Part shown: positions 1 to 3,000 of the stretch, piece by piece
How positions within the stretch are numbered: the stretch's first letter is position 1
Layout of the letters: each line of letters begins with the position of its first letter
From: a virus
Taxonomy: Duplodnaviria > Heunggongvirae > Uroviricota > Caudoviricetes
IMG/VR virus record: IMGVR_UViG_2695420380_000004
Reading direction: 5' to 3' (one strand)
Length of the DNA stretch: 8,070 nucleotides
Program-made: the position numbers

Positions 1-3000
1 ATCAGAACAATCACGTGGTGATTCAGAACGACGGCCCCAACGGGCGGGCAGGGCCGCAGCTGATGAAAGCGGTGTATGAGATGGCCCGCAAGGGGGCACA
101 GGATGAACTCCGGCTGCAGTTGCGTGATGGCGGTATGTTATCAGGGAGCGGTGGATGAAAACCTTTCGCTGGAAAGTGAAGCCGGATATGGAGGTGAACT
201 CGCAGCCATCGGTGCGTGAAGTGCGTTTTGGTGACGGGTACTCACAGCGTATGGCGGCAGGGCTGAATGCTGACCTGAAAACATACAGGGTGACGCTTTC
301 CGTGACCCGGGAGGAGGCCCGGCATCTGGAAGCGTTCCTGGCAGAGCACGGTGGCTGGAAGGCATTTTTGTGGAAGCCACCCTATGCATACCGGCAGATA
401 AAGGTGACCTGTGCCGGGTGGTCTGCGCGGGTCGGGATGTTGCGCGTTGAGTTCAGCGCGGAGTTTAAGCAGGTGGTGAACTGATGCAGGATATTCGCGA
501 AGAAAGTCTGAACGAGTCGGTTAAGTCAGAGCAGTCACCGCGGGTGGTACTCTGGGAAATCGACCTGACGGTACAGGGTGGTGAGCGGTATTTTTTCTGT
601 AATGAGCTGAATGAAAAAGGGGAGCCGGTCACCTGGCAGGGGCGTAAGTATGAGGCATACCCGATTGACGGCAGCGGCTTTGAGATGAACGGCCGGGGCA
701 GCAGTGCCAGACCGTCGCTGACGGTGTCCAATCTGTTCGGTCTGGTCACCGGGATGGCGGAAGACCTGCAGAGTCTGGTGGGGGCCACGGTGGTCCGCCN
801 NNNNNNNNNNNNNNNNNNNNNNNNNNNNNNNNNNNNNNNNNNNNNNNNNNNNNNNNNNNNNNNNNNNNNNNNNNNNNNNNNNTGGTCCGCCGCCGGGTGT
901 ATGCCCGTTTTCTGGATGCGGTGAATTTCGTTGCGGGCAATCCGGAGGCGGACCCGGAGCAGGAGCTGAGTGACCGCTGGGTGGTGGAGCAGATGTCGCA
1001 GCTGACAGCCATGACGGCCTCGTTTGTGCTGGCTACACCGACCGAGACGGACGGGGCGCTGTTTCCCGGTCGCATCATGCTGGCGAACACCTGTATGTGG
1101 GATTACCGGGGAGATGAATGCGGGTATAACGGTCCTGCGGTGGCGGATGAGTTCGACAACCCCACCACGGATATCCGTAAGGACAGATGCAGCAAGTGCA
1201 TGCGCGGGTGTGAACTGCGCAGGAATGTCGGCAATTTTGGCGGTTTCCTTTCCATTAATAAACTTTCGCAGTAAATCCCGGTTTATGACACAGACTGAAT
1301 CAGCGATTCTGGCACATGCCCGGCGGTGTGCGCCTGCGGAGTCGTGCGGCTTCGTGATAAGCACGCCGGAGGGGGAGCGGTATATCCCTTGTGTGAATAT
1401 TTCCGCAGAGCCGGAGGCGTATTTTCGTATCGCACCGGAAGACTGGCTGCGGGCAGAGATGCAGGGGGAGATTGTGGCACTGGTCCACAGTCATCCCGGT
1501 GGGCTGCCCTGGCTGAGCGAGGCTGACCGGCGGTTGCAGATAAAAAGCGCACTGCCCTGGTGGTTGGTCTGCCGGGGTGACATTCACAAATTCCGCTGTG
1601 TGCCACATCTGACAGGACGGCGCTTTGAGCACGGGGTGACGGACTGTTACACGCTGTTCCGGGATGCTTATCATCTGGCGGGGACTGAAATGCCGGATTT
1701 TCATCGCGAGGATGACTGGTGGCGCAACGGTCAGAACCTTTACCTGGACAATATGGCGGTCACCGGCTTTTACCGGGTGCCCCTGTCCTCTGCACAGGCG
1801 GGCGATATTCTGCTGTGCTGCTTTGGTGCTTCGGTACCGAACCATGCCGCCATTTACTGCGGCAACGGTGAGCTGCTTCACCATCTGCCTGAACAACTGA
1901 GTAAACGGGAGAGGTATTCCGAAAAATGGCAACGACGAACGCATTCAGTCTGGCGTCACCGCCACTGGCACGCATCTGCCTTCACGGGGATTTACAACGA
2001 TTTGGCCGCCGCCTCAGCCTGTATGTGAACACGGCAGCGGAAGCCATTCGCGCCCTGTCGATGCAGATGCCGGGCTTTCGCCGTCAGATGAACGAAGGCT
2101 GGTACCAGATACGTATTGCCGGTTATGACACGGCACCGGAGGCGGTGTACGCCCGTCTTCACGAACAGCTGGGTGAGGGAACGGTCATCCACATTGTGCC
2201 GCGACTGGCCGGGGCCGGAAAGGGTGGACTGCAGATTGTGCTGGGGGCGGCAGCCATCGTGGGCTCTTTCTTCACTGCCGGGGCATCAATGGCGTTATGG
2301 GGTTCAGCCCTGGCAGCCGGTGGTTTTTCTGCCACCACGATGCTGTTTTCACTTGGAGCCAGCATGATTCTGGGCGGTGTGGCCCAGATGCTGGCCCCGA
2401 AGGCAAAAACACCGGATTACCGCGCAACGGATAACGGCAGACAGAACACGTACTTTTCCTCACTGGATAACATGATTGCCCAGGGGAACCCGATGCCGGT
2501 GCCTNNNNNNNNNNNNNNNNNNNNNNNNNNNNNNNNNNNNNNNNNNNNNNNNNNNNNNNNNNNNNNNNNNNNNNNNNNNNNNNNNNNNNNNNNNNNNNNN
2601 NNNNNNNNNNNNNNNNNNNNNNNNNNNNNNNNNNNNNNNNNNNNNNNNNNNNNNNNNNNNNNNNNNNNNNNNNNNNNNNNNNNNNNNNNNNNNNNNNNNN
2701 NNNNNNNNNNNNNNNNNNNNNNNNNNNNNNNNNNNNNNNNNNNNNNNNNNNNNNNNNNNNNNNNNNNNNNNNNNNNNNNNNNNNNNNNNNNNNNNNNNNN
2801 NNNNNNNNNNNNNNNNNNNNNNNNNNNNNNNNNNNNNNNNNNNNNNNNNNNNNNNNNNNNNNNNNNNNNNNNNNNNNNNNNNNNNNNNNNNNNNNNNNNN
2901 NNNNNNNNNNNNNNNNNNNNNNNNNNNNNNNNNNNNNNNNNNNNNTCTCTTTAGCATGGCAGAAATGTGTTTCATGCTTTTCGGGCGAAGGATATCCGAC

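What the first reader, a model, noticed from the sequence alone, without database searches (positions are those of the whole stretch)
791..891. N-run inside L is flanked by a perfect 9-bp direct repeat (TGGTCCGCC)
Bases 791-799 and 883-891 are identical. Deleting the 83 Ns and one repeat copy gives an L ORF of exactly 699 nt (232 aa + stop), the length of lambda gpL, with the junction reading ATVVRRRVYARF as in lambda (TVVRRKVYARF). Two explanations fit. (a) A scaffolding artefact: two contig ends that overlap by 9 bp were joined with a spacer. (b) A masked or unassembled insertion in L with a 9-bp target-site duplication, as made by 9-bp-TSD insertion sequences such as IS1, IS10 or IS903. In case (b) L is insertionally inactivated, which would fit the other lesions in this module. 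The N length need not reflect the true insert size.
Basis: seen in the sequence. Interest (0 to 1): 0.5.

Follow-up and report, generated by a model that had tools for sequence, protein, structure and literature searches.

The report
Unclosed scaffold gap with overlapping ends
The run of Ns inside the phage tail gene L is a leftover of draft-genome scaffolding: the two contig ends really overlap by 9 bases, so the gene is almost certainly intact and nothing is inserted there.

Summary
There are 83 Ns at 800-882. TGGTCCGCC abuts them on both sides, and these are its only two copies in the window. Removing the Ns and one copy gives a 699-nt L gene.

- The window is a whole draft record, CXCT01000170.1 of GCA_001249045.1. 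It is a defective lambdoid prophage of the type found in Shigella sonnei.
- In 14 related loci that span the site, the two flanks map with a 9-nt overlap and L is uninterrupted. Five of these are complete or near-complete chromosomes that share this prophage's private J lesions.
- The repaired L matches the three copies compared base by base at 699 of 699 nt.
- A second N-run (441 N) covers 341 nt in all relatives. Both N-runs therefore overshoot by about the same amount, 92 and 100 nt.
- That excess fits one biased insert-size estimate. It is larger than GapFiller's default 50-nt tolerance, and 9 nt is one short of its 10-nt merge threshold.
- No foreign base lies next to either repeat copy. 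Draft contigs of the same prophage that abut a real IS keep 38-155 nt of the IS end.

An IS of at least 768 bp is not supported. This is not a biological feature, and interest is very low.

The parts
484..799 (+). 5' part of tail gene L (codons 1-105 plus 1 nt), the end of the left contig
   Evidence: 100% identical to L of S. sonnei and E. coli chromosomes. A 105-aa gene called here in the public record hits PF05100 Phage_tail_L.
791..799 (.). First copy of TGGTCCGCC, the last 9 nt of the left contig
   Evidence: Maps to L132 7661-7669, the same reference bases as the second copy.
800..882 (.). 83-N scaffold spacer. The true gap length is -9 nt.
   Evidence: Segments A and B overlap by 9 nt on L001, L002, L123, L127 and L132-L141. 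The N-run is present in the NCBI record.
883..891 (.). Second, redundant copy of TGGTCCGCC, the first 9 nt of the right contig
892..1274 (+). 3' part of L through the stop codon
   Evidence: Joined to 484-799 it gives a 699-nt ORF identical to L of L132, L135 and L001. The public record calls a 129-aa gene at 883-1274, which includes the redundant repeat copy, and that product hits PF05100.
2505..2945 (.). Second scaffold spacer (441 N), used here as a calibrator. It hides the last ~100 nt of gene I and most of the I-J spacer.
   Evidence: The missing stretch is 341 nt in L002, L123, L127 and L132-L141, and 340 nt in L001. Excess is +100 nt, against +92 nt at the first gap.

Best explanation
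The N-run is an unclosed 'negative' gap in a short-read draft scaffold. Two contigs, or gap-filling extensions, of the same uninterrupted L gene end at 799 and begin at 883. In the real genome these ends overlap by 9 nt (TGGTCCGCC). The scaffolder linked them through read pairs and wrote a spacer sized from a gap estimate that was about 90-100 nt too large. The overlap was too short to be recognised, and the size disagreed with the estimate, so the gap was never merged. The gene is intact: 699 nt, 232 aa.

Shown: the overlap of the flanks on references, the identity of the repaired gene, the equal overshoot of both gaps, and the absence of foreign bases.

Inferred: that the assembly was made with the Sanger Velvet + SSPACE + GapFiller pipeline, and that GapFiller's rules are the proximate reason the gap stayed open. 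Those rules require at least 10 nt of overlap and agreement with the estimated gap to within 50 nt.
For: 1. The window is the complete 8070-bp record CXCT01000170.1 of draft assembly GCA_001249045.1, with two N-runs.
2. Segment 1-799 and segment 883-2504 map at 99-100% identity to positions that overlap by exactly 9 nt in 14 loci:
   - E. coli chromosomes L001 and L002;
   - IMG/VR contigs L123 and L127;
   - ten loci, L132-L141, that carry the identical 547-aa J fragment. These include five complete or near-complete chromosomes (4.9-5.0 Mb records), one of which is S. sonnei UKMCC1015, CP060117.
   All of the last ten have a called 232-aa L gene.
3. The repaired L is 699/699 identical to L of L132, L135 and L001.
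4. Calibration: the second N-run (441 N) replaces 341 nt in the relatives (340 in L001), an excess of +100. The first has an excess of 83 - (-9) = +92. One common bias explains both.
5. The GapFiller paper states that a gap is closed only with an overlap of at least 10 nt (parameter n) and an inserted length within 50 nt of the estimate (parameter d) (PMC3446322). Here the overlap is 9 nt and the discrepancy is 92 nt.
6. The Sanger pipeline paper describes Velvet + SSPACE + GapFiller 1.11 and 299 S. sonnei assemblies. Its supplement lists S. sonnei WGS prefixes running CWW* to CXA* before the stored text is cut.
7. Not one non-L base adjoins either repeat copy. Five draft contigs of the same prophage that abut an IS21-family element retain 38, 47, 98, 154 and 155 nt of the IS end.
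8. L alleles in other prophages diverge 2 nt after the 9-mer, GCC versus GTC. This could be a graph branch point if the genome holds a second L copy.
Against: - No reads from this isolate were available, so the junction was not seen directly in this strain.
- Relatives cannot exclude a strain-private insertion.
- S. sonnei carries many IS elements, and several flank and interrupt this prophage in the complete genomes. IS insertions are therefore common in this background. From general knowledge, IS1 makes 9-bp duplications.
- CXCT01 itself was not found in the stored part of the pipeline paper's supplement, so the assembler attribution is an inference.
- Other N-runs in related scaffolds do not show overlapping flanks, so the signature is not routine.
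- Why extension stopped at exactly 9 nt is not demonstrated.
Confidence: 0.92

Rival explanations
1. A strain-specific insertion sequence with a 9-bp target-site duplication (IS1, IS10 or IS903 type) sits in L. As a repeat it was left out of the scaffold, so L would be insertionally inactivated.
For: - A perfect 9-bp direct repeat abuts the gap, and 9 bp is the duplication length of these IS types (general knowledge).
- The host lineage is S. sonnei, and the prophage neighbourhood in complete genomes carries IS21-, IS1- and IS3-family elements.
- The module is already decaying.
Against: - No IS-terminal bases lie next to either repeat copy. Draft contigs of this prophage that meet a real IS keep 38-155 nt of it.
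- The N-run is 83 nt. The same scaffold's other gap is estimated to within 100 nt, which is incompatible with an insert of 768 bp or more.
- Linking across such an insert would need read pairs longer than the 300-500-bp fragments the pipeline paper describes.
- All 14 relatives, including those with identical flanks and shared J lesions, have an uninterrupted L.
- Scans of IMG/VR for any sequence other than L after the 9-mer found only SNP alleles of intact L, plus one unrelated chance match.
Confidence: 0.04
2. The N length is accurate. About 83 nt of real, unassembled or masked sequence, such as a small non-autonomous element, lies between two true copies of the 9-mer. That adds 92 nt and frameshifts L.
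For: The N-run has an odd, non-default length (83). This suggests an estimate rather than a fixed placeholder.
Against: - The other N-run in the same scaffold is 100 nt longer than the sequence it replaces in all relatives, so N lengths here are not accurate.
- An excess of about 92 nt is exactly what a -9 gap would give under that same bias.
- No foreign bases lie at the edges.
- No relative has extra sequence there.
- A gap-spanning pattern allowing any 83 bases found nothing in IMG/VR or in GTDB representative genomes.
Confidence: 0.02
3. The two 9-mers are a chance coincidence at the edges of an ordinary gap that hides real L sequence.
For: None beyond the possibility.
Against: - Probability is about 5e-6.
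- There is no missing L sequence. The flanks already account for all 699 nt, with 9 nt to spare.
Confidence: 0

Closest known systems
Unclosed negative (overlapping) gap in a paired-read scaffold, as left by SSPACE/GapFiller-type pipelines
   Same: - Two adjoining sequences are linked by read pairs, with an N spacer sized from an insert-size estimate.
- The ends really overlap, but by less than the merge threshold (9 against a default of 10 nt).
- The estimate disagrees with the true distance by more than the allowed 50 nt.
   Different: The assembler used for CXCT01 is inferred from the accession series and the pipeline paper. It was not read from the record.
IS1 / IS10 / IS903 insertions with 9-bp target-site duplications
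   Same: A 9-bp direct repeat flanks an unresolved stretch, in an IS-rich Shigella background.
   Different: There are no terminal inverted-repeat bases. The estimated gap is an order of magnitude too small. No insertion is seen at this site in any relative.
Lambda minor tail protein gpL (Pfam PF05100)
   Same: The repaired ORF has the same length, 232 aa. It aligns without gaps at 179/232 identity and has the same position between M and K.
   Different: None relevant. It is an ordinary lambdoid L allele, identical to WP_001335877.1-type L genes in E. coli and S. sonnei.

Membership tests
Scaffolding artefact (overlapping contig ends joined by Ns) | Both flanks map to adjacent, overlapping coordinates on closed reference sequences | tested here: met
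   A 9-nt overlap in 14 of 14 loci that span the site.
Scaffolding artefact (overlapping contig ends joined by Ns) | The record is a scaffolded draft whose N-run lengths are estimates, not measured sequence | tested here: met
   The window is the whole record CXCT01000170.1. The second N-run is 441 N against 341 nt in relatives.
Scaffolding artefact (overlapping contig ends joined by Ns) | Removing the spacer and one repeat copy restores the wild-type sequence exactly | tested here: met
   699/699 identity to L of L132, L135 and L001.
Scaffolding artefact (overlapping contig ends joined by Ns) | Reads of the same isolate cross the junction with a single repeat copy | not testable with these tools
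   No read data are reachable. The Logan look-up cannot be aimed at one sample.
IS insertion with 9-bp target-site duplication (IS1, IS10, IS903) | A direct repeat of target DNA, 9 bp long, on both sides | tested here: met
   TGGTCCGCC at 791-799 and 883-891. A contig overlap explains this equally well.
IS insertion with 9-bp target-site duplication (IS1, IS10, IS903) | IS terminal inverted repeats immediately inside the duplicated target | tested here: not met
   The Ns start directly after the 9-mer on both sides. Contigs that meet a real IS in this prophage keep 38-155 nt of the IS end.
IS insertion with 9-bp target-site duplication (IS1, IS10, IS903) | An insert of IS size, at least 768 bp, encoding a transposase | tested here: inconclusive
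   The content is N. The gap estimate of 83 nt, with the error calibrated at about 100 nt by the second gap, argues against it.
Lambda gpL / Phage_tail_L (PF05100) | Sequence similarity over the full length, and position between M and K | tested here: met
   Pfam hits on both halves, an ungapped 232-aa alignment to lambda L, and the gene order M-L-K-I-J.

The most novel reading that the evidence does not exclude
The isolate behind GCA_001249045.1 carries a private insertion in L, an IS or a small repeat element with a 9-bp duplication. The assembler dropped it completely, which would add one more inactivating lesion to an already defective S. sonnei prophage.
Probability: 0.05. Interest if true: 0.1.

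Novelty: not a real feature. Interest (0 to 1): 0.03.

Why it matters
It matters only as a caution. N-runs in draft scaffolds can be flanked by short perfect repeats that mimic target-site duplications, and they split intact genes into two apparent fragments. The public gene calls for this record list L as 105-aa and 129-aa pieces. Pseudogene or IS-insertion counts taken from such drafts would be inflated. Even if the alternative were true, an IS in a gene of a defective Shigella prophage would be commonplace.

Tried and rejected
- **Gap-spanning pattern.** I scanned IMG/VR and the GTDB representative genomes with left flank + 83 any bases + right flank. No hits, so neither the source nor any real 83-nt insert is there.
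- **J C-terminal 50-mer against IMG/VR.** It gave 120 loci. None was the source, and all N-runs in them were single Ns.
- **Is a flank overlap a routine signature of N-runs in related scaffolds?** It is not: 0-2 nt in 28 other N-runs. I dropped the idea that every gap in such assemblies looks like this.
- **N-joins in L138/L139 as examples of how an IS looks in these drafts.** They lie in the rearranging tail-fibre region, not at IS elements, so they were uninformative. The IS21-family boundary upstream of Z served instead.
- **Same 22-bp J deletion in complete E. coli genomes.** Every one of the 30 best rows shown spans 142 nt, which means the 22 bp are present. The lineage turned out to be S. 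sonnei, which that collection does not hold.
- **CXCT01, GCA_001249045 and ERR025689 in papers and in the pipeline paper's supplement.** Not found; the stored supplement is cut.
- **Any non-L continuation after the 9-mer in IMG/VR.** Only SNP alleles of intact L and one unrelated chance match.
- **Rfam on the I-J spacer of a relative.** Nothing reached a gathering score.
- **The 83-N run against the 83-nt lom deletion.** The lom deletion is a gap-free shared allele in several E. coli prophage contigs. I take the equal number to be a coincidence.

Full report
**Observation**

The window has two N-runs: 800-882 (83 N) and 2505-2945 (441 N). TGGTCCGCC sits at 791-799 and 883-891, directly against the first run on both sides, and occurs nowhere else on either strand.

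At the window's base composition, a 9-nt identity abutting a given gap has probability about 5e-6.

Joining 484-799 to 892-1274 gives a 699-nt ORF of 232 codons plus stop, reading ...GATVVRRRVYARF.... It aligns without gaps to lambda gpL, which is also 699 nt, at 179/232 identity. One detail differs: an uninterrupted 700-1000 amplicon would be 209 bp, not about 190 bp.

**Where the window comes from**

A look-up of the truncated Lom protein returned the window itself. It is the complete 8070-bp record CXCT01000170.1 of draft assembly GCA_001249045.1, with the same two N-runs. The Ns are therefore part of the public scaffold.

The region is the tail-tip module of a lambdoid prophage:
- end of H;
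- M (155-484);
- L (484-1274, split by the Ns);
- K (1285-2028);
- I (1926 into the second gap);
- J (from 3050);
- lom (6590-7072);
- the start of a tail-fibre gene.

J is broken twice. There is a TGG>TGA nonsense codon at 3251-3253. There is also a 22-bp deletion at about 4915, between CTGACGG direct repeats.

The 547-aa J fragment defined by these two lesions is indexed in 62 blocks of the protein-position collection. The ten places shown include five complete or near-complete chromosomes (4.9-5.0 Mb records). One of them, CP060117, is Shigella sonnei UKMCC1015. The window is therefore a defective prophage of the S. sonnei type. The species of the source record itself was not read.

**What lies at the L site in relatives**

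Segment 1-799 and segment 883-2504 map at 99-100% identity to coordinates that overlap by exactly 9 nt in all of these:
- two E. coli chromosomes;
- two IMG/VR contigs that share the 22-bp J deletion;
- all ten loci carrying the identical J fragment.

Each of those ten has a called 232-aa L gene. The repaired window L is 699/699 identical to L in two S. sonnei-type chromosomes and one E. coli chromosome. Nothing is missing from L. The flanks contain the whole gene plus 9 redundant bases, so the true gap length is -9.

**Calibration by the second gap**

In the same relatives the second N-run replaces 341 nt (340 in one E. coli genome). These are the last ~100 nt of I and most of an AT-rich I-J spacer. 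It is written as 441 N, an excess of 100. The first gap is written as 83 N for a true -9, an excess of 92.

The two nearly equal excesses fit one systematic over-estimate of pair distance in this assembly. They also show that the estimate is good to roughly 100 nt. That is compatible with a closed gap.

**Why the gap stayed open (inferred)**

The Sanger high-throughput pipeline uses Velvet, then SSPACE scaffolding, then 120 iterations of GapFiller 1.11. It was applied to 299 S. sonnei samples. Its supplementary table lists S. sonnei WGS prefixes running CWW*, CWX*, CWY*, CWZ* and CXA* before the stored text is cut.

CXCT, and the sister prefixes CXBQ, CXCB and CXDZ seen here, follow directly in that series. 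CXCT itself was not found, so the attribution is an inference.

The GapFiller paper states that a gap is closed only if two conditions hold. The two extensions must overlap by at least 10 nt, and the inserted length must be within 50 nt of the pre-estimated gap. Here the overlap is 9 nt and the discrepancy is 92 nt, so both conditions fail.

I could not establish why extension halted at exactly 9 nt. One possible cause of the original contig break is a second L paralogue. Other lambdoid L alleles are identical through the 9-mer and diverge two bases later, GCC versus GTC. I could not search a whole S. sonnei genome for such a paralogue.

**The IS hypothesis**

The prior is not negligible. The complete S. 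sonnei genomes show IS21-, IS1- and IS3-family elements around and inside this prophage. IS1 makes 9-bp duplications (general knowledge). The evidence still goes against it:

- A graph-based short-read contig that runs into a repeat keeps some of the repeat's end. Five draft contigs or scaffolds of this same prophage that meet the IS21-family element upstream of Z keep 38, 47, 98, 154 and 155 nt of it. One of them, L141, is from the sister series CXDZ. At the L gap there is not one foreign base on either side.
- The gap estimate is an order of magnitude too small, as shown above.
- Linking two contigs across an IS would need fragments longer than the 300-500 bp the pipeline paper describes.
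- Scans of IMG/VR for anything other than the normal continuation after GGGGCCACGGTGGTCCGCC returned only SNP alleles of intact L and one unrelated chance match.

A strain-private insertion cannot be formally excluded without reads. I put it at about 4%, and a literal ~83-nt insertion at about 2%.

**Comparison with known things and verdict**

The feature works like, and passes the testable criteria for, an unclosed overlapping-end gap in a paired-read scaffold. It fails the key testable criterion for an IS insertion, which is terminal repeats inside the duplication.

The underlying gene is an ordinary PF05100 lambda-type L. It is not a biological feature, and interest is very low. The practical lesson is that such gaps mimic target-site duplications and split intact genes in annotation. 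The public calls for this record list L as 105-aa and 129-aa fragments.

**Side observations**

- The J lesions are real and inherited.
- The window is identical to the S. sonnei reference prophage up to 5213. It then diverges: 45 mismatches over 5214-6053, followed by an unrelated J C-terminus, a different lom allele and a different tail-fibre start.
- Sister assemblies hold this right-hand part as separate contigs that start at about 5399 and 5758. It is either a recombinant prophage or a chimeric contig built through a shared repeat.
- lom carries an 83-nt deletion between CTGGCG direct repeats. Several E. coli prophage contigs share it. The equality with the 83 Ns appears coincidental.

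Noticed in passing
window 2505-2945: A second N-run (441 N) hides the 3' end of gene I and most of the I-J spacer. Relatives have 341 nt here, AT-rich (46% GC), with two hairpin-plus-T-run motifs. There is no convincing ORF or Rfam match. Lambda itself has only about 60 nt between I and J.
   Followed up: partly
window 3251-3253: J has a TGG>TGA nonsense codon at codon 68. It leaves a 67-aa ORF (3050-3253) and a restart ORF at 3323. The same lesion is present in complete S. sonnei chromosomes, so it is real.
   Followed up: yes
window ~4915/4916: A 22-bp deletion in J between 7-bp direct repeats (CTGACGG) shifts the frame (ORFs 3323-4966 and 4960-6519). Five IMG/VR contigs and the S. sonnei chromosomes share it. 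None of the 30 best-matching complete E. coli genomes listed has it.
   Followed up: yes
window 5214-8070: Identity to the S. sonnei reference prophage is 100% up to 5213. It then falls to 45 mismatches over 5214-6053, followed by an unrelated J C-terminus, a different lom and a different tail-fibre start. Sister assemblies carry this right-hand part as separate contigs. It may be a recombinant prophage or a chimeric contig built through a repeat shared by two prophages.
   Followed up: partly
window 7066/7067 (lom 6590-7072): lom has an 83-nt deletion between CTGGCG direct repeats, giving a 160-aa truncated product. Several E. coli prophage contigs share the deletion allele at 99.8% identity. 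The exact 160-aa protein was found only in three CX* assemblies and Logan run ERR025689. The number 83 equals the N-run length, apparently by coincidence.
   Followed up: partly
L138 10293; L139 14106-16356; L127 462 and 12034: Related draft scaffolds contain single-N or short-N joins. These connect different prophages, or differently oriented pieces of the tail-fibre region, for example a second full-length J after the N in L138. Scaffolds of this prophage family are often chimeric.
   Followed up: partly
L132 499-1772 (upstream of Z in S. sonnei chromosomes): An IS21-family element (terminal ...TGACA at L132 1772) truncates the prophage upstream of gene Z in all S. sonnei relatives. IS1 and IS3-family copies lie in or near the tail-fibre region of some of them.
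   Followed up: partly
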